DNA of 5,714 nucleotides, filler included, from an uncultured virus (IMG/VR IMGVR_UViG_2061766007_001503) (taxonomy: Duplodnaviria > Heunggongvirae > Uroviricota > Caudoviricetes). It is 3 parts of one record of this genome, joined end to end, with 100 filler letters (N's around TTAATTAATTAA, not from the genome) between each part and the next. Parts side by side here need not be neighbours in the genome. Positions count along the whole stretch, not along the records: positions 1,637 to 3,599 come from IMGVR_UViG_2061766007_001503; 2 more parts are not named here. One strand, written 5' to 3'. Below are positions 1-5,022 of this stretch, in pieces (position 1 is the stretch's first letter; each line of letters starts with the position of its first letter). The position numbers were made by a program, and so were the translations under genes. Below the pieces are notes generated by a model, which was not told where the DNA came from, ran no database searches, and saw nothing but the letters and a program-made list of their open reading frames with translations.

Positions 1-479
1 TTGGTCTTCTAAAAATACATAATTTTGTAATATACCATTATAATTATTGCTTCCTACAATATAATTTGGTAAATTATATGATGGTGAAAACAATTCATAA
101 ACATTATTAGATTCAGGCCCAGTACTAAGACAATTTAATTTAGGAATATCAATATCATATGTTTCAAAAAATCTATAATAATTAGTATATGCCCAACAAT
201 ATGTATTATTTAAGTAATTATTATAGATTATTCCGCCTGGACGTTCTTTTTCAACAGGTTCTGATGTATTAAATTCAAATAATCCTTCAAATCCTAAAGG
301 ATTATCTGCATCAAAGACTTCTATATTATATAAAGAATTTATTATTGGTATCTGTAAAGTTAGACTATTTNNNNNNNNNNNNNNNNNNGAAGTATCCCAA
401 TATCTATTTGTTTTTTATATCTAATAGCATCAGCTATATTACTAAAGATAGGTCTAAAAACTTCAAAATTATTAGCCAT
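1..479 (-). CDS. Asn/Tyr-rich protein with N-terminal 'IFSNIADAIRYK' motif; probable paralog of the BspA-like gene upstream (phage surface/adhesin-like family); interrupted by N gap 371-389 and runs off the window end
   Basis: AAGGAGG then ATG at 479 (MANNFEVFRPIFSNIADAIRYKKQ...). After the gap I read one stop-free minus frame from 369 to 1 (NSLTLQIPIINSLYNIEVFDADNPLGFEGLFEFNTSEPVEKERPGGIIYNNYLNNTYCWAY...VFLEDQ). The frame offset across the gap is attributed to the estimated gap length. Confidence 0.7.
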
Positions 480-513
480 AGATAAACCTCCTTTTTTCTC
501 TATATAAATATAT

Positions 514-543
514 AAAAAAAAGAAGGGTAAGATTAAATAATCT
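514..543 (-). terminator. Probable intrinsic terminator, 5' arm partly lost in N gap 544-553
   Basis: Minus strand reads AGATT-ATTT-AATCT-TACCCTT-CTTTTTTTT: an inner stem AGATT/AATCT, an unpaired TACCCTT whose partner would lie in the gap, then a U-tract just before the next gene's leader. Confidence 0.55.
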
Positions 544-553
544 NNNNNNNNNN

Positions 554-1382
554 TAATCAATTGCATTTGTAAAAAAATTGTCAAAATTACTGCTAATATA
601 TTGGAAATTTAATGGTTGATTAAAAGAAATACAATTATATAATAAACCATTTATAAATTGCGAATTTAAAATTTTTTGATCAATTGGTTGATTAAAAGAA
701 ATACAATTATTATATAAATAATGCGCACTATCTACAGTAGATACTGCATCTAAATTTATATTTGTATTATAATTAGCACAATCTTGAAATAAAGAAGATA
801 AATCAACAATTGATCTTAAAAAAGTAATTGTACCATTATAATTTGGGCAATTCATCATTTGTATTGGTCGCCTACAATTACTAGAATAAATAATATTTGA
901 ATTAAAATTAGCTCCTTCTAAACCTATTACAGACATATATGTATTATTATAAGTATGATCATCTATAAAATATGTAGGATAAAACTCTGATTCTAAATAA
1001 GTATTTGCTATAAAAGGATTATATAATATAAAAGATATGTGATTTATATTACTAGGTTTATCTGCAATTATATATAATNNNNNNNNNNNNNNNNNNNNNN
1101 NNNNNNNNNNNNNNNNNNNNNNNNNNNNNNNNNNNNNNNNNNNNNNNNNNNNNNNNNNNNNNNNNNNNNNTTATTTGATATATAATTAAAACAATATCCA
1201 TGAATAGATTCCAAAGCATCATCATCAACAAAAGTTAAATATGGATATGGAGATAATGTAAAAGCGCCATTATTTAAATTTAAAATTGCTTCAGCTAATT
1301 CAGAAGGATAATAATAATTTGTACTATTTTCCTGGTATCTAACTGCATTAGCTATATCTGTAAAAATACTACTTAAAGTCAT
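554..1382 (-). CDS. BspA/DUF285-type leucine-rich-repeat-like surface protein; one gene broken by N gap 1079-1170, 3' end lost in gap 544-553
   Basis: AAAGGAGG then ATG at 1382 (MTLSSIFTDIANAVRYQENSTNYYYPSELAEAILNL). The frame of the 472..936 ORF is open upstream to the gap at 1078 (LYIIADKPSNINHISFILYNPF...), so ATG936 is internal. It has about 24-aa repeats: LFQDCANYNTNINL, LYNNCISFNQPI, LLYNCISFNQPL (cf. the DUF285 consensus MFxxCxxFNQxL). Confidence 0.65.
613..710. repeat. Exact 26-nt direct repeat (TGGTTGATTAAAAGAAATACAATTAT) at 613-638 and 685-710, 72-nt period
   Basis: Read directly. It encodes the duplicated NCISFNQP unit of the BspA-like protein. Confidence 0.9.
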
Positions 1383-1536: not shown

Positions 1537-1636
1537 NNNNNNNNNNNNNNNNNNNNNNNNNNNNNNNNNNNNNNNNNNNNTTAATTAATTAANNNNNNNN
1601 NNNNNNNNNNNNNNNNNNNNNNNNNNNNNNNNNNNN
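1537..1636. other. Artificial contig-joining spacer (44 N + TTAATTAATTAA six-frame stop linker + 44 N)
   Basis: Exactly 100 nt and symmetric, with a palindromic all-frame stop linker at 1581-1592. The identical construct occurs at 3600-3699. Confidence 0.95.
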
Positions 1637-2178
1637 TTGTGGAATAATGTTAATTAAATCTTGAGCCTTACCAGCTAATTGCATAGTATAAAGTCCTTTA
1701 AGAATATCGTCTTCAATCTGACTTTCAATTTCCTTATAACATTCATTATAAAATTTCTTTGCGTTAAAGAAATTCTGCTCTGCAAAAACAGGTTTTCTTT
1801 CAAGACATTCAATGTATGTGAAATAATGTCCAACCATCATTTCCGCAGTAAATCTTGCAATAGAACCATTAAAAGGATTTTTCTTTCTACAAAACTTAAT
1901 TGCATTAATAGATGCAATAGTAGCTCCCCATTGACAAAGATCAAAATTGTACTGCGGCATACCATTCTCGTCTTGCCCAATTCTAGTAATAGAATGCTCA
2001 GAGCCAACCCGCCATAAATATACTGGAGTATCTTTAATAACATTGATCATCAAAGGGCTCCCTTCAATAGTCATGCGGATCTTCCAATTTAACTCACCAT
2101 CTTCCATAGCGCGCAATTGAGTGAAACCAATTCCATTCTTGCGAAGAAAAGCTACATTGTAGAGTCTCCCAAAAACCC
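1637..2178 (-). CDS. Glycosyltransferase family 2 (GT-A), exon 2 (3'-truncated at contig end)
   Basis: Continues the GT-A fold: (W)VFGRLYNVAFLRKNGIGF, then the acidic 'MED' motif, then YLWR...SITR, as typical of the C-terminal half of GT2 domains. It begins right after the intron's terminal G (2179). Confidence 0.85.
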
Positions 2179-3111
2179 CATTATATTCCATATAAATCGC
2201 TACTTTATATGCGTTCTCTTATGAACTGCTTATAGTTTCCTATAAGATTAGACTATATCACAATCTTTTCAGATTTCTACCATTTCAGAGGCGCTTGCCC
2301 CTTACTTCCTTTCGGAATAGTCGTTGAACTTTACTTTAATCACTTATATACCTCCAATTACTTTGAGTAACTCTCTTAAAATTATTTTCACAATGTCTTT
2401 TAATTGTTTCTCTTTTTACACCAGTGGCTTTACTAGCAGCTAGCATTGAAGGATAAATTGTATGAGTTGGAATATATTCAACTCTTTTACTCGATAATTC
2501 ATTACCAGTTTTTTTATAAATAGGACCAAACTCTTCATATTCATTTAACTGCATCCAATGGAAACCTCCTGCAGTTACTCTTGAAGGTGCATGCCTTGCA
2601 CATTCTGCAATATGGCAACCATTAATGTTAGTTTGCCTTGATGCTTCTGCGGCAGAGAGATATATTTGAGACGTTTCTAAACAGATAATAGGAATATCAT
2701 TTCGAGGAGGAAGGTCTCCGCCAGGGGTTAAATTATATCCATTTTGGTAAGAATCATAATAAGAAATCCAATAAATTTCTCTATTATTTAATTGATCATT
2801 ATTAATTTCTTCAATAACACCCCAATTAAAATTATCTTTACCATATTTTCTTAATGCTCTATGAAAATATAATTCGCTCCCTAAAGAAGCCTCTTCAATG
2901 TGATGATACCATCTTTTTTCTACCTCTTGTATAGTTTGTCCTATATATATTTTATGATTTATTAAATTTTCTACTTTATAAATAATGCCCAATATTTAGT
3001 TTTCGTGATTAAAGTCTTAGCTGCTGATTGCCCTCGACTTTACGTTAGGGGTTCCAGCAATTAGATAGATTTTTCGATATGCATTTCTGCATAAAGCCGC
3101 CGGTTAAATTA
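2179..3111 (-). ncRNA. Group I self-splicing intron, subgroup IA2-like, 933 nt, with homing endonuclease ORF in L6
   Basis: Minus strand elements: P1 exon CCGU(3115-3112)/IGS GCGG(3100-3097) with U-G at the 5' splice site; P2 TATGCA-GAAA-TGCATA (3093-3078); P3 TCTATC(3069-3064)/GGTAGA(2281-2276); P AATTGCTGGAA (3062-3052); Q AATCAGCAG (3029-3021); P6a ACTTTAATCAC(3015-3005)/GTGATTAAAGT(2343-2333); R GTTCAACGACTA (2329-2318); P7.1 TTCC-GAAA-GGAA; P7.2 AGGGGC-AAGC-GCCTCT; P8 AATCT-GAAA-AGATT; S GTGATATAGTCT (2261-2250); P9 CTTATAG-GAAA-CTATAAG; P9.1; P9.2 CATATAAA..TTTATATG; terminal G 2179; P10 AACC(3105-3102)/exon GGTT(2177-2174). Confidence 0.93.
2336..2992 (-). CDS. Intron-encoded GIY-YIG homing endonuclease with two C-terminal NUMOD1-like HTH DNA-binding modules
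   Basis: GIIY...IYIGQT, conserved Arg (KRWYHH), Glu (NNREIYWI) and GYN of the GIY-YIG domain. Two modules follow: PIICLETSQIYLSAAEASRQTNINGCHIAECA and KRVEYIPTHTIYPSMLAASKATGVKRETIKRHC. TTG start at 2992. Confidence 0.92.
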   Translation of the reverse strand: MGIIYKVENLINHKIYIGQTIQEVEKRWYHHIEEASLGSELYFHRALRKYGKDNFNWGVIEEINNDQLNNREIYWISYYDSYQNGYNLTPGGDLPPRNDIPIICLETSQIYLSAAEASRQTNINGCHIAECARHAPSRVTAGGFHWMQLNEYEEFGPIYKKTGNELSSKRVEYIPTHTIYPSMLAASKATGVKRETIKRHCENNFKRVTQSNWRYISD

Positions 3112-3571
3112 ACGGATGTCCCACATCGCCGCGTGGAATAAATCGAACACCTTGAGGGTTATCTCTTACCTCTTGACAGAAAGGAGCTTGAACCTCAATA
3201 ACTTCGGGTTTATTTACTCCTCTGAGTAAAAATTCAATAGAAAATGGAGTGAAGAATACATCATCAGCATCTATAAAAGTAATCCAGTCAGTTTCTGCAG
3301 CATCAAGACATCTCTGTCTTGCGAGTCCCGGCCCTGTATTTTTCTCACAATCGAGAATTGTAATATCAAGATGCGGAAATGCTGATTTTACAAATTCATA
3401 ATCATCTTCAGGATTATCTTTAGCGATGATAACTGAAATCATATCTCTGACAGTCTGAATAGAAATAGAGGAAAGACAGTCTATGATATGGGTCTCCGCC
3501 TTAAAAGCGGGGATACCAACAGTTACTCTCTTTTGTATATCTTCTCTTGTTTTTGTTTGATGCTTACTCAT
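3112..3571 (-). CDS. Glycosyltransferase family 2 (GT-A), exon 1
   Basis: AAGGAG RBS before ATG 3571. Motifs VTVGIPAFKAE..IIDCLSSI..QT, NTGPGLARQRCLDAA and WITFIDADD (DxD). The ORF stops at TAA 3106-3104 a few nt inside the intron, as is typical of phage group I introns. Confidence 0.9.
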
Positions 3572-3599
3572 TCAATTATCTCCTTGTATCTCTTATTAT

Positions 3600-3699
3600 N
3601 NNNNNNNNNNNNNNNNNNNNNNNNNNNNNNNNNNNNNNNNNNNTTAATTAATTAANNNNNNNNNNNNNNNNNNNNNNNNNNNNNNNNNNNNNNNNNNNN
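3600..3699. other. Artificial contig-joining spacer (44 N + TTAATTAATTAA + 44 N)
   Basis: Same 100-nt construct as 1537-1636, with the linker at 3644-3655. Confidence 0.95.
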
Positions 3700-3859
3700 A
3701 TTTTTTATAATTATTATTTTCTTCAAAATAATGATATTTATGACAAAGTTGATAACCATCTAATCCTATAAAACCAAAATAATCACTTAATTGTGAATGA
3801 GTCATTAAGCCTTCAATCATATGTTCGCTTAATTTACTAAAGATTTCTTCTATTGTCAT
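3700..3859 (-). CDS. Ferritin-like four-helix protein, 5' part only (truncated by spacer)
   Basis: ATGA overlap with the upstream gene and a GGAG RBS. MIEGLMTHSQLSDYFGFIGLDGYQLCHKYHYFEE resembles ferritin helices A-B (E..A...Y..M..YF....L.G...FF.....EE..H). Confidence 0.6.
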
Positions 3860-4263
3860 AATTTCTCCACAGTAATAGCTACATTAGTAACAGTAGAAGC
3901 AATCCCGCTTAAAACAAAAGTAAGATTAGAGAGTCCTTCACAACATGAACAGAATTCACGAACAATCGAAGTAAGTGAAAGATTTATAAAATCTCCTGCG
4001 GCGGCCGCGGTTTCCGTAGCGGTAGCCCCTTGGAGCTCTGTGCCATCTTTATAAATTGTTACAGTAGCTTCACCGGTTTCAGTAGGAGCCAATGTAATAC
4101 TAGCATCTATTTTATAATAACCAGTTCCCGCAATTTGAATAACATTCCCAGCTAAAGAAATATTAGGACCAAATCTTCTTACTATTGTTCCTGGTAAAAT
4201 AATACCATCAACGGGTACTTCTTGATTAGATGTATTAACAACATATAAAGCTGATTTACTCAT
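3856..4263 (-). CDS. Hypothetical 135-aa beta-rich protein, BclA C-terminal/C1q-TNF-like jelly roll predicted
   Basis: AAGGAGG RBS. The pattern 'I.LAGNVIQIAGTGYYKIDASITL...ATVTIYKDG..L.GA....T' and terminal 'NVAITVEKL' resemble the BclA-CTD-like fold. It has a CSCC loop. Confidence 0.6.
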   Translation of the reverse strand: MSKSALYVVNTSNQEVPVDGIILPGTIVRRFGPNISLAGNVIQIAGTGYYKIDASITLAPTETGEATVTIYKDGTELQGATATETAAAAGDFINLSLTSIVREFCSCCEGLSNLTFVLSGIASTVTNVAITVEKL

Positions 4264-4280: not shown

Positions 4281-4314
4281 AAAAAGAAGGCGCCGCAGTT
4301 ATACTACGGCGCCC
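4281..4314 (-). terminator. Intrinsic terminator / stabilising hairpin inside the cassette
   Basis: Minus strand GGCGCCGTAG-TATAA-CTGCGGCGCC followed by TTCTTTTT, a few nt after the stop of the 233-aa gene and directly before the next RBS. Confidence 0.85.
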
Positions 4315-4320
4315 AAACAT

Positions 4321-5022
4321 TTAAATTGCACCGCATCCGCATCCTGTATTAAAACAAGGTGAGGGAACTGCATAGAAAGTATTGCTCGGATAACGAACAA
4401 CAGAAGCAAGCTGATTCTGAAGTTCAAGAGCATTGATTTGCTGTTGCATATCTGCCATTCTGTTTCCAGTGATGGCGTCAAGGATTTTCTGAGTTTGTGC
4501 GGTTGTGTTTGCATTAATTGCGGCGGTGTTCATAGCAGCATCATATCTGCTTTGCGCAATATTTGCATTAATACCTGCACCGATCTCGCTCATGAGCATC
4601 TTTGTAGAGCAGCAGCATTCATTCTGATTAGCTATTGATTGCTGAACTGCAGAACCTACACTGAGAATATCTCTGTCAAGTTCAGAATATTTATCGCCAA
4701 CATAACCAACAATGTCATGATAAACCTGATTTGTAGTAGCTACAGACTGAGCGGTCCCCGCATTAACAGCTGCTAAAATATCTCTCTGATTAGCCATAGA
4801 ATTCTGGTTATCAAACCCACGCTGAACTTCATTGGAGGTTGCTAAATTTTCATAACCAATGGCATTAGCAAATCCATTTCCGCCCCAACCAAGGCCACCA
4901 AAACCGCCATTAGCTAAGATAAGTAAAGCGAAAATCCATAAAAATGAATTATCTCCCCACATACCATCGTTCTTTCCACTTAATAAAGCTACATCACTTG
5001 CACTAAGACCATTTTCTCCCAT
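4321..5022 (-). CDS. Conserved-type hypothetical 233-aa protein: hydrophobic segment, Gly-rich linker, coiled-coil core, Cys motifs (ECCC; C-terminal CFNTGCGCG)
   Basis: GAAAGGAG RBS before ATG 5022. Segment SFLWIFALLILANGGFGGLGWGG; long Ala/Gln/Asn helical region. I recognise the architecture from uncharacterised Firmicute phage/prophage genes but cannot assign a function. Confidence 0.85.
   Translation of the reverse strand: MGENGLSASDVALLSGKNDGMWGDNSFLWIFALLILANGGFGGLGWGGNGFANAIGYENLATSNEVQRGFDNQNSMANQRDILAAVNAGTAQSVATTNQVYHDIVGYVGDKYSELDRDILSVGSAVQQSIANQNECCCSTKMLMSEIGAGINANIAQSRYDAAMNTAAINANTTAQTQKILDAITGNRMADMQQQINALELQNQLASVVRYPSNTFYAVPSPCFNTGCGCGAI

What the first reader, a model, noticed from the sequence alone, without database searches (positions are those of the whole stretch)
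1637..3571. Self-splicing group I intron inside a family-2 glycosyltransferase gene
Seen: two ORFs annotated separately (155 aa and 200 aa) are halves of one GT-A domain, separated by a complete IA2-type ribozyme core (P1-P10 all traceable, four GAAA tetraloops). Splicing after U3112 and after G2179 joins CAT CCG T|GG GTT TTT, creating a Trp codon in frame (...GDVGHP-W-VFGRLY...), for a protein of more than 334 aa. Established: bacterial and phage group I introns mostly sit in tRNA/rRNA genes, nucleotide/DNA-metabolism genes (td, nrdB/D/E, DNA polymerase, recA) and some terminase, lysin or structural genes. Inference: a glycosyltransferase is an unusual host gene. Persistence of a homing intron implies this GT is conserved and important across a phage population, for example for virion, host-surface or DNA glycosylation.
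Basis: partly seen in the sequence, partly recalled or inferred. Interest (0 to 1): 0.85.

Follow-up and report, generated by a model that had tools for sequence, protein, structure and literature searches.

The report
Mobile self-splicing intron in phage glycosyltransferase
A sugar-transferase gene of an uncultured phage is split by a self-splicing group I intron that carries its own DNA-cutting "homing" enzyme gene; the element is a familiar kind, and only the gene it has invaded is unusual.

Summary
Observation confirmed. On the minus strand, a family-2 glycosyltransferase (GT) gene is interrupted by a 933-nt group I intron (3111..2179). Exon 1 is 3571..3112. Exon 2 is 2178..1637 and is cut by a contig end.

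- **Junction:** splicing at the predicted sites rebuilds the invariant H-P-W-V-F-G motif seen in all 12 aligned intronless homologues, the closest 98% identical over exon 2.
- **Ribozyme:** each half matches Rfam RF00028 at E about 8e-8 once the inserted ORF is set aside. All 77 proposed P1-P10 pairs are standard pairs. The 3' half belongs to a 55-sequence phage intron family with strong covariation.
an intact 218-aa GIY-YIG/NUMOD1 homing endonuclease ORF (2992..2336) sits in the P6 loop.
- **Distribution:** the same intron sits at the same site in two other uncultured-phage contigs. A probable second intron sits 27 codons downstream, right after the predicted catalytic Asp, in another. Short ORFs in the protein database end at four discrete conserved sites, which hints at an intron hot spot.
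- **GT fold:** closest to wall-teichoic-acid glycosyltransferases TarS, TarP and RmlT.
- **Not shown:** splicing itself.

Earlier notes of this scan (unchecked by me) report group I introns in other phage GT genes, at a different site. Verdict: new member of a known kind.

The parts
3580..3585 (-). Shine-Dalgarno-like AAGGAG, 8 nt before the GT start codon
   Evidence: read from the sequence
3112..3571 (-). GT exon 1: 153 codons plus the first base (T3112) of the Trp codon. Carries the GT2 N-terminal half with the DADD (DXD-type) motif.
   Evidence: ORF; PF00535 49.7 bits; alignment A1
2179..3111 (-). Group I intron, 933 nt, ending in omega-G2179
   Evidence: junction fixed by intronless homologues
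2993..3111 (-). Ribozyme 5' segment. Internal guide sequence 3097-3100 pairs with exon bases 3112-3115 (P1, U3112-G wobble). P2 3079-3092. P3 5' strand 3064-3069. P4 3055-3059 with 3022-3026. P5 3047-3050 with 3031-3034. P6 5' strand 3006-3015.
   Evidence: RF00028 model positions 1-136, 34.8 bits, E 7.9e-8; coordinates
2336..2992 (-). Homing endonuclease ORF, 218 aa, TTG start, looped out of P6. GIY-YIG domain residues 1-87, NUMOD1 residues 159-200.
   Evidence: phrog_314, E 1e-28; 59.8% identical orthologue in L005; dN/dS 0.24
2333..2342 (-). P6 3' strand, overlapping the endonuclease stop codon. Forms a 10-bp stem with 3006-3015 that closes the ORF loop.
   Evidence: an 11-bp equivalent with different letters, read by eye in the L005 rows of alignment A2
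2179..2335 (-). Ribozyme 3' segment. P7 2318-2322 with 2251-2255. P7.1 2306-2317. P7.2 2287-2302. P3 3' strand 2276-2281. P8 2262-2275. P9 2229-2246. P9.1 2213-2226. P9.2 2189-2211. Omega-G 2179.
   Evidence: RF00028 model positions 120-253, 35.1 bits, E 8.2e-8; family covariation; coordinates
3102..3105 (-). P10 guide bases, pairing with exon 2 bases 2174-2177
   Evidence: 4 of 4 pairs in the window, 3 of 4 in L005
1637..2178 (-). GT exon 2: the last two bases of the Trp codon plus 180 codons. Truncated by the contig end and linker at 1636.
1537..1636 (.). Artificial spacer (44 N + TTAATTAATTAA + 44 N) marking a contig join. A second one lies at 3600-3699.

Best explanation
Window 3111..2179 (minus strand) is a mobile group I intron of the phage IA type. 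It has P7.1/P7.2 between P7 and P3', and the ORF sits in the P6 loop. It lies inside a phage family-2 glycosyltransferase gene.

Inferred mechanism, by analogy with characterised phage group I introns:
- The gene is transcribed as one pre-mRNA.
- The ribozyme folds around the looped-out endonuclease ORF.
- An external guanosine attacks after U3112, which is held in P1 by a U-G wobble with the guide sequence.
- The freed exon 1 then attacks after omega-G2179, with exon 2 aligned by P10. This yields an mRNA for one GT of about 373 aa and recreates the invariant Trp codon.

The intron-encoded GIY-YIG/NUMOD1 protein is inferred to cut intronless alleles of the same GT during mixed infection, so that repair copies the intron in (homing). 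That would explain why the insertion sits in the most conserved stretch of the gene and why presence and absence are both seen among close relatives.

Shown here: the sequence anatomy, the exact junction, the covariation, and the presence/absence polymorphism. Inferred: splicing, endonuclease activity and homing.

From its predicted fold, the GT itself is most like the wall-teichoic-acid glycosyltransferases TarS, TarP and RmlT. It therefore probably decorates a host cell-wall polymer. This is a low-confidence inference.
For: 1. Junction. All 12 full-length homologues in A1 read HPW-VFGR without a gap, the closest being 98% identical over exon 2. The gene is uninterrupted at this site in 10 of 12 IMG/VR loci and 79 of 80 metagenome loci.
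2. Covariance model. RF00028 matches the 5' half (3121..2985, model positions 1-136, 34.8 bits, E 7.9e-8) and the 3' half (2345..2229, model positions 120-253, 35.1 bits, E 8.2e-8).
3. Pairing. All 77 proposed pairs in P1-P10 are standard pairs, with a U-G at the 5' splice site and a G at the 3' end.
4. Orthologue. L005 carries a 933-nt insertion at the same codon in a GT only 71% identical. Twelve pairs changed on both sides yet stayed paired, in P2, P3, P6, P7.1, P7.2, P8, P9 and P9.2.
5. Family. 75 IMG/VR loci share the 22-nt P9.1 motif. In 55 distinct 3' halves including the window, RNAalifold recovers P7, P7.1, P7.2, P8, P9, P9.1 and P9.2. Of 36 pairs, 22 show compensatory change. 97.4% of cells are paired, and 408 double-change cells compare with 112 in shuffles (0 of 500 shuffles as high). 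Slid controls score 0.105 or less against 0.544.
6. DNA similarity to annotated phage group I introns: Lactococcus phage Tuc2009 (feature 'group I intron') and the T-even nrdB intron region, 73% over 160 nt.
7. Endonuclease. GIY-YIG 27.3 bits (cut-off 22.6), NUMOD1 24.5 bits (cut-off 22.8), phrog_314 E 1e-28. The ORF is intact, and dN/dS against the L005 orthologue is 0.24.
8. Exon adaptation. The intron-bearing alleles checked at this codon (the window and L005) use CCG for the Pro codon, which P1 needs. Only 7 of 80 intronless loci do.
Against: - No RNA evidence: splicing was not observed.
- In the whole-window Rfam scan the two RF00028 hits scored 19 and 20.7 bits, below the gathering score of 50. 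Each half alone is also below 50.
- The contig is only 1963 nt, so the genomic context is unknown and assembly error cannot be excluded from this record alone. Independent assemblies with the same insertion argue against that.
- The endonuclease ORF starts at TTG with no visible Shine-Dalgarno sequence.
- Some phage group I introns do not self-splice in vitro although they splice in vivo (PMC11878797, passages read). 'Self-splicing' in the strict sense is therefore unproven.
Confidence: 0.93

Rival explanations
1. The ribozyme is a decayed relic or does not splice. The GT is made as two polypeptides (155 aa and about 225 aa, the latter starting at ATG 2191) that either work together as a split enzyme or are both dead.
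For: Gene callers see two ORFs. An in-frame ATG lies 4 codons before the 3' splice site. Genes split by homing endonucleases are known in phages (recalled). No spliced RNA was seen.
Against: Every core helix is intact: 77 of 77 pairs. P1 and P10 match these exons, and the U-G and omega-G are present. No Shine-Dalgarno sequence precedes ATG 2191. The split would cut a beta-strand region in the middle of the GT-A domain at an invariant Trp. The L005 orthologue keeps the same ribozyme through compensatory changes.
Confidence: 0.04
2. Assembly chimera: an intron from another gene of the community was joined to GT fragments by the assembler.
For: The contig is short (1963 nt) and is flanked by linkers. 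Related introns with identical 20-22-nt motifs are common in the same kind of samples.
Against: The guide sequence pairs with these particular exon ends. The same insertion point recurs in two other contigs from other assemblies, L005/L202/L208 and L028/L207. Seventeen protein clusters end at the same HP residue, six of them on contigs longer than 16 kb.
Confidence: 0.02
3. The intervening sequence is an intein, or a stop-codon recoding artefact, rather than an intron.
For: The break falls just before a Trp codon. TGA=Trp recoding would break ORF calls at such places. This stays possible for some database ORFs that end before W86 or W144, because no DNA was seen for them.
Against: In the window, the codons after Pro153 are TTA ATT TAA, followed by 933 nt with stops in the GT frame and an independent ORF. 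So it is neither TGA recoding nor an in-frame intein.
Confidence: 0.01

Closest known systems
Phage T4 td intron with I-TevI (recalled textbook case, not fetched here)
   Same: IA-type core with P7.1/P7.2. A GIY-YIG homing endonuclease ORF is looped out of P6. The insertion lies in highly conserved codons of an enzyme gene. Presence and absence are both seen among relatives.
   Different: The host gene is a GT2 glycosyltransferase, not thymidylate synthase. The endonuclease's DNA-binding part is NUMOD1. No sequence comparison with td was made here.
T-even nrdB intron (RB3 and relatives; records annotated nrdB / I-TevIII)
   Same: The 3' ribozyme half (window 2178-2337) is about 73% identical over 160 nt (H9-H21).
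   Different: The host gene is the ribonucleotide reductase small subunit, and the endonuclease is of another family. The blastn rows listed for these records cover only the 3' half.
Lactococcus phage Tuc2009 group I intron in the major structural protein 4 gene (AF109874.2, feature 'group I intron')
   Same: Both ribozyme ends match at 83% over two short pieces (H5). This is a precedent for a phage intron in a gene outside nucleotide metabolism.
   Different: It is annotated with an HNH endonuclease and sits in a structural host gene. Only about 8% of the query is covered.
The uncultured-phage intron family found here (75 IMG/VR loci sharing the P9.1 motif)
   Same: The same 3' architecture, P7 to P9.2, is kept by covariation. 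Some members also encode GIY-YIG relatives.
   Different: Among the 47 distinct 3' exons, those that matched a PHROG family (33 of 47) are NrdD, large RNR subunit, terminase, virion structural, head and tape-measure proteins, RNA polymerase beta, topoisomerase II and Sak4, plus a few families of unknown function; 13 other exons were unassigned. Only L103 is this GT, and it was identified by tblastn, not by PHROGs.
Introns of Bastillevirinae and Twort-like phages (PMC11878797; passages read)
   Same: These are IA2/IA3-like ribozymes disrupted by a loop that encodes a homing nuclease (32 of 45 introns in that study).
   Different: That paper finds introns only in DNA polymerase, terminase, thymidylate synthase and RNR genes, and asks why they stay in nucleotide and DNA metabolism genes. 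A GT host lies outside that list. Its supplementary table of split genes could not be read.
TarS, TarP (prophage-encoded) and RmlT wall-teichoic-acid glycosyltransferases, compared with the host protein
   Same: Best structural matches of the model of P0001: TarS 5tzi E 1e-12, TM 0.56-0.63; RmlT 8bz4; TarP 6h1j. A profile alignment to TarS runs to residue 203 and places the family's RAMED motif on TarS 'SAED'.
   Different: Sequence identity is only 14-18%. The substrate and acceptor are unknown. No trimerisation or C-terminal domain comparison was made.

Membership tests
Group I intron (Rfam RF00028) | Conserved catalytic core (P3-P8 with paired elements P/Q = P4 and R/S = P7) recognised by the covariance model | tested here: met
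   5' half: 34.8 bits, E 7.9e-8, model positions 1-136. 3' half: 35.1 bits, E 8.2e-8, model positions 120-253. All P3, P4, P5, P6, P7 and P8 pairs are standard.
Group I intron (Rfam RF00028) | A single hit at or above Rfam's gathering score (50 bits) | tested here: inconclusive
   The whole-window scan gave 19 and 20.7 bits, and the halves gave about 35 bits each. The 657-nt ORF in P6 splits the model, so no single hit can reach 50. This is an operational cut-off, not a structural feature.
Group I intron | 5' splice site after a U paired with G in P1; the last intron base is G (omega-G); P10 with the 3' exon | tested here: met
   U3112 pairs with G3100. G2179 is the last intron base. P10 is 3102-3105 with 2174-2177. 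The junction is confirmed by homologues.
Group I intron | Guanosine-dependent self-splicing | not testable with these tools
   No RNA holder was listed. This needs an in vitro assay.
Subgroup IA2 (phage type) | Extra hairpins P7.1 and P7.2 between P7 and the 3' strand of P3 (definition recalled) | tested here: met
   P7.1 is 2306-2317 and P7.2 is 2287-2302. Both are kept by compensatory changes in L005 and in the 55-sequence family.
Subgroup IA2 (phage type) | Best match to a subgroup-specific covariance model | not tested
   Only the general RF00028 model is on hand. Similarity to the T-even nrdB intron is the only pointer.
GIY-YIG homing endonuclease (I-TevI-like) | GIY-YIG catalytic domain above the curated cut-off, plus a DNA-binding module | tested here: met
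   PF01541 27.3 bits (cut-off 22.6). NUMOD1 24.5 bits (cut-off 22.8). phrog_314 'homing endonuclease' E 1e-28.
GIY-YIG homing endonuclease (I-TevI-like) | Site-specific cleavage of the intronless allele | not testable with these tools
   Only indirect support: an intact ORF, and dN/dS 0.24 against the L005 orthologue.
Glycosyltransferase family 2 (GT-A fold) | GT2 domain above the Pfam cut-off with a DXD-type motif | tested here: met
   PF00535 49.7 bits (cut-off 23.3) on exon 1. The DADD motif is near-invariant in the family: D91, D93 and D94 invariant, A92 at 90% or more.
Glycosyltransferase family 2 (GT-A fold) | GT-A fold continuing across the splice junction | tested here: met
   Model of the intronless homologue P0001 (pLDDT 79.2). 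Foldseek: TarS, RmlT and TarP at E 1e-12 to 1e-11 over 337-375 columns. The spliced window protein itself was not folded.
Wall-teichoic-acid glycosyltransferase (TarS/TarP/RmlT type) | Transfer of a sugar to poly-ribitol or glycerol phosphate | not testable with these tools
   Fold resemblance only, at 14-18% identity.

The most novel reading that the evidence does not exclude
This accessory glycosyltransferase family of uncultured gut and rumen-type phages is a multi-site hot spot for mobile introns. At least three independent insertions fall within 30 codons, all at invariant motifs: before Trp144, inside Met168, and right after the predicted catalytic Asp170. Roughly one allele in ten would be interrupted.

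That would show that homing introns spread as readily in a host-surface-modifying accessory gene as in the DNA-metabolism and structural genes where they are usually catalogued. It would also offer a natural set of intron-plus and intron-minus alleles for studying homing in uncultured phages.
Probability: 0.5. Interest if true: 0.5.

Novelty: new member of a known kind. Interest (0 to 1): 0.36.

Why it matters
The two fragments should be annotated as one glycosyltransferase gene, plus an intron and a homing endonuclease gene, rather than as two hypothetical fragments.

The finding adds a glycosyltransferase to the list of phage genes colonised by group I introns. A recent survey found them only in nucleotide and DNA metabolism genes and terminase (PMC11878797, passages read).

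The insertion points mark the residues of this uncharacterised GT family that are under the strongest constraint: the HPW motif and the RAMED motif, which aligns with the TarS 'AED' motif. These are candidate functional sites.

If the multi-site pattern holds, the family would be a good natural system for studying intron homing and exon co-conversion in gut and rumen phages.

Tried and rejected
- **Whole-window Rfam scan.** It gave only sub-threshold RF00028 pieces. This was resolved by scanning the halves.
- **RNA evidence.** No RNA holder was listed for 1637-3571.
- **Own genome.** None is held for this window.
- **Cultured phages.** tblastn of exon 2 against 50,697 records gave no match.
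- **Intein or recoding.** Rejected for the window, because TTA ATT TAA follows Pro153.
- **Recent horizontal transfer between the window and L005 lineages.** Not supported. The ribozyme halves are 78% and 75% identical and the endonuclease ORF 65%. The exons are about 67% identical, ranging 57-78% per 60-nt bin.
- **Co-conversion tract against the closest intronless allele, L012.** There are 4 synonymous differences within 12 nt of the junction, followed by 33 identical bases, but identity along the exons is patchy. Inconclusive.
- **Metagenome scan for GT loci.** The 80 loci kept (of 99 that encode a relative) were ranked by match. That ranking disfavours split genes, so 1 interrupted of 80 is not a frequency.
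- **Second intron in L011.** The 3' half matched RF00028 at 21.5 bits, E 8.5e-4. The 5' half gave no match at E up to 1.
- **DNA for ORF classes C and D.** None could be obtained. All 18 IMG/VR contigs of the family were typed and none is interrupted there.
- **Literature.** Three searches and passages of PMC1924603, PMC3706429, PMC5759034, PMC12880540 and PMC11835236 gave no intron in a GT gene. The supplementary table of split phage genes in PMC11878797 could not be read and may bear on novelty.
- **First Pfam call.** It failed on a wrong frame and was repeated with 1637-2176.
Full report
**What is at the coordinates**

On the minus strand there are three ORFs:
- 3571..3104, 155 aa.
- 2992..2336, 218 aa, with a TTG start.
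- 2191..1589, 200 aa, whose last 15 residues are X from an N run.

The first is the N-terminal half of a family-2 glycosyltransferase: PF00535, 49.7 bits, profile positions 1-107 of 168. The third has no Pfam hit by itself. The middle one is a GIY-YIG plus NUMOD1 protein that PHROGs files as a homing endonuclease (phrog_314, E 1e-28).

The window is not one piece of DNA. Spacers of 44 N, TTAATTAATTAA and 44 N lie at 1537-1636 and 3600-3699. The finding therefore sits on its own 1963-nt contig (1637..3599). The other genes of the window are not necessarily its neighbours, and exon 2 is cut by the contig end.

**The junction**

Reading the sequence, exon 1 ends with the Pro153 codon followed by T3112. 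The intron begins at 3111 and runs into a stop within three codons. It ends with G2179, and exon 2 begins at G2178. T3112 plus G2178-G2177 makes a TGG (Trp) codon in frame.

A search with exon 2 for longer proteins found 761 proteins at E up to 0.001 among 1224 candidates. The 120 best listed are 331-397 aa and carry GT2 domains, and the best (P0001, 373 aa) is 98% identical. In the alignment of both window halves with 12 of these proteins, every full-length protein reads H-P-W-V-F-G-R without a gap exactly where the halves abut. W144 is invariant in the 18-sequence alignment A4, and H142 is nearly so.

At the DNA level the gene is uninterrupted at this site in most loci:
- 10 of 12 IMG/VR loci.
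- 79 of 80 metagenome loci. Of these, 77 pass a strict test. L152 and L201 were flagged only for a second paralogue hit and a one-residue alignment offset.

**The ribozyme**

A scan of the whole window with Rfam gave only two sub-threshold RF00028 pieces, 19 and 20.7 bits against a gathering score of 50. The reason is the 657-nt ORF inside the intron. Scanned separately, the halves score as follows:
- The 5' half (3121..2985) matches model positions 1-136 at 34.8 bits, E 7.9e-8.
- The 3' half (2345..2229) matches positions 120-253 at 35.1 bits, E 8.2e-8.

I placed all helices by hand and checked them with a script. P1 (with the U3112-G wobble), P2, P3, P4, P5, P6, P7, P7.1, P7.2, P8, P9, P9.1, P9.2 and P10 together make 77 pairs, and all 77 are standard pairs in the window. 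A 10-bp P6 stem (3006-3015 with 2333-2342) closes the loop that holds the endonuclease ORF, and the ORF's stop codon lies in that stem.

**Comparative support**

L005 is an IMG/VR contig whose GT is only 71% identical over exon 2. It has a 933-nt insertion at the same codon, with a 59.8% identical endonuclease. Between the two introns, 12 pairs changed on both sides yet stayed paired, in P2, P3, P6, P7.1, P7.2, P8, P9 and P9.2. The MAFFT alignment undercounts P6, P8 and P9 because of indels.

A 22-nt motif from P9.1 occurs in 75 IMG/VR loci. From these, 54 distinct 3' halves plus the window align well. On that alignment:
- RNAalifold on its own recovers P7, P7.1, P7.2, P8, P9, P9.1 and P9.2. 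Of 36 pairs, 22 show compensatory change.
- 97.4% of cells are paired.
- 408 double-change cells compare with 112 in shuffles, and 0 of 500 shuffles reached that value.
- Slid controls give a covariation score of 0.105 or less, against 0.544.

One caveat: the loci were collected by an exact match to the window's P9.1, so P9.1 itself carries no information. The other helices do.

blastn against cultured phages shows that both ribozyme ends resemble annotated phage group I introns. Tuc2009, with a 'group I intron' feature, matches at 83% on two pieces. The T-even nrdB intron region matches at about 73% over 160 nt.

**Subgroup**

P7.1 and P7.2 between P7 and the 3' strand of P3, and an ORF in the P6 loop, are the phage IA pattern (definition recalled). 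Subgroup-specific models were not available, so 'IA2' is consistent with the data but was not formally tested.

**The endonuclease**

The ORF is intact in both the window and L005. The GIY and YIG motifs lie at the very N terminus, so the TTG start is the only plausible one; a stop lies two codons upstream. dN/dS between the two orthologues is 0.24 over 216 codons, which indicates purifying selection. Activity and homing are inferred.

**Distribution and mobility**

The closest relative (L012 = L210 = P0001; L123 encodes the same protein) lacks the intron. Around the junction it differs from the window at four synonymous positions within 12 nt, followed by 33 identical bases.

The intron-bearing alleles checked at this codon (the window and L005) use CCG for Pro153, which P1 needs. 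Only 7 of 80 distinct intronless loci do. This fits either co-conversion or selection for P1 pairing, and I cannot tell which.

Intron identity between the window and L005 is 75-78% for the ribozyme and 65% for the ORF. That is not clearly above exon identity of about 67%. So there is no sign of recent transfer between those two lineages.

Of 18 distinct IMG/VR contigs with this GT, 3 are interrupted:
- L005 and L028/L207 at this site.
- L011 at another site.

**A second site, and hints of more**

In L011 the gene is interrupted by about 919 nt right after the Asp of the invariant RAMED motif, 27 codons downstream. The insert contains a different GIY-YIG ORF, 28.6% identical. By eye it has a 7-bp P1 with a terminal U-G, R- and S-like elements, and a terminal G. 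Its 3' half matches RF00028 at 21.5 bits, E 8.5e-4. Its 5' half gives nothing. I rate it a probable second group I intron.

A search with exon 1 for proteins of similar length gave 104 proteins at E up to 1e-20. Classified by where they end in P0001 numbering:

| ORF ends at | Clusters | Notes |
|---|---|---|
| HP143 | 17 | Includes the window's own ORF. Six are on contigs longer than 16 kb. |
| RAMED170 | 27 | Same position as the L011 insertion. |
| RA167 | 19 | Followed by a conserved read-through tail beginning IN or IK. |
| KTE85 | 7 | Just before W86. |
| No discrete class | 34 | Many are probably contig-end fragments. |

No DNA was seen for these proteins. The KTE85 class, and in principle some of the HP143 class, could instead reflect TGA=Trp recoding, since W86 and W144 are the first two Trp residues of the protein. 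The RA167 class cannot be explained that way. So the family looks like an intron hot spot, but that claim rests partly on protein ends alone.

**How unusual is the host gene?**

Among the 47 distinct 3' exons next to the related introns, 33 matched a PHROG family at E up to 1e-5. These were anaerobic and aerobic ribonucleotide reductases, terminase-like proteins, a virion structural protein family, major head protein, tape-measure proteins, RNA polymerase beta, topoisomerase II and Sak4-like proteins, plus a few families of unknown function. Of the 14 without a match, one (L103, the L005 contig) is this GT by tblastn and the other 13 are unassigned.

Literature checks:
- The search 'group I intron' + 'glycosyltransferase' + 'phage' gave 13 papers. 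None reports such an intron, judging from the listing and abstracts. The matching passages of the top two (PMC3706429, PMC5759034) and of PMC1924603 confirmed it.
- The search 'intron' + 'glycosyltransferase gene' + 'self-splicing' gave none.
- A survey of Bastillevirinae introns found them only in polymerase, terminase, thymidylate synthase and RNR genes (PMC11878797, passages read). Its supplementary table could not be read.
- Jumbo gut phages carry about 18 group I introns per genome (PMC12880540, passages read). Intron-rich gut phages are therefore established.

Earlier notes of this scan (unchecked by me) describe group I introns in other phage GT genes. Those sit 43 bases after the start, lack an ORF and have a free-standing nuclease beside them. 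That is a different site and arrangement.

**The glycosyltransferase**

A model of P0001 built from alignment A4 has mean pLDDT 79.2. Its best PDB matches are:
- S. aureus TarS (E 1e-12, TM 0.56-0.63).
- L. monocytogenes RmlT.
- Prophage-encoded TarP.

All three are wall-teichoic-acid glycosyltransferases, at 14-18% identity. A profile of A4 aligns to TarS through residue 203 and places RAMED on TarS 'SAED'. By my count of that alignment the Asp is TarS D178, which I recall as its catalytic base.

The only hit in prokaryote genomes is a 42.8-kb contig of a MAG labelled Eubacterium sp., which is weak evidence for a Gram-positive host. In L012 the gene lies between a tail-fibre-like protein (Peptidase_S74 and CBM_5_12) and DUF285 / BspA-type repeat proteins. 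Modification of a host wall polymer is my best guess, at perhaps 0.4. Glycosylation of virion proteins is the alternative.

**Verdict**

The observation and the main interpretation stand. This is a typical mobile phage group I intron with a GIY-YIG homing endonuclease, in an uncommon host gene. It is a new member of a known kind. Splicing and homing remain to be shown.

Noticed in passing
window 1537-1636 and 3600-3699; further N runs at 371-388, 544-553 and 1079-1170: Two 100-nt spacers (44 N + TTAATTAATTAA + 44 N) show that the window is made of separate contigs joined with a stop-in-all-frames linker. Gene neighbourhood across them is not reliable.
   Followed up: partly
L011 3082-4000: A second, different insertion of about 919 nt in the same GT family, directly after the Asp of the invariant RAMED motif. 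It has its own GIY-YIG ORF, a 7-bp P1 with U-G, and RF00028 on the 3' half only (E 8.5e-4).
   Followed up: partly
proteins P0121-P0224: Short N-terminal GT ORFs end at four discrete conserved positions: HP143 (17 clusters), RA167 (19), RAMED170 (27) and KTE85 (7). This suggests several intron sites. The KTE85 class could instead be TGA=Trp recoding at W86.
   Followed up: partly
L048-L122 (75 IMG/VR loci): A large family of phage group I introns shares an invariant 22-nt P9.1 stretch while sitting in many different host genes: NrdD, RNR large subunit, terminase, head, tape measure, RNA polymerase beta, topoisomerase II and Sak4.
   Followed up: partly
L013-L047 (35 IMG/VR loci): The P4-P5 motif of the window's intron also occurs in introns whose upstream exons look like psbA (D1 protein) and RtcB-like genes. 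This was judged by eye from translated exon tails only.
   Followed up: no
window 4282-4365, minus strand: A GC-rich hairpin followed by a U run, between ORFs 4321..5022 and 3856..4263. It gave a sub-threshold match to Rfam ncS54 (23.9 bits against 43) and is probably just an intrinsic terminator.
   Followed up: no
L152 4955-5350: A second, partial copy of the GT C-terminal region lies about 1.5 kb downstream of the intact gene in one metagenome contig.
   Followed up: no
L217 (contig of a MAG labelled Eubacterium sp.): The only hit for the GT family among 185,579 species genomes. It is either a prophage or a phage contig binned with a Firmicutes MAG, and hints at the host group.
   Followed up: no
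window 472-936 and 1068-1382, minus strand; L012 4756-8538: DUF285 / BspA-type leucine-rich repeat proteins lie near the GT in the intronless relative. Fragments of them occur on the window's other contigs.
   Followed up: no
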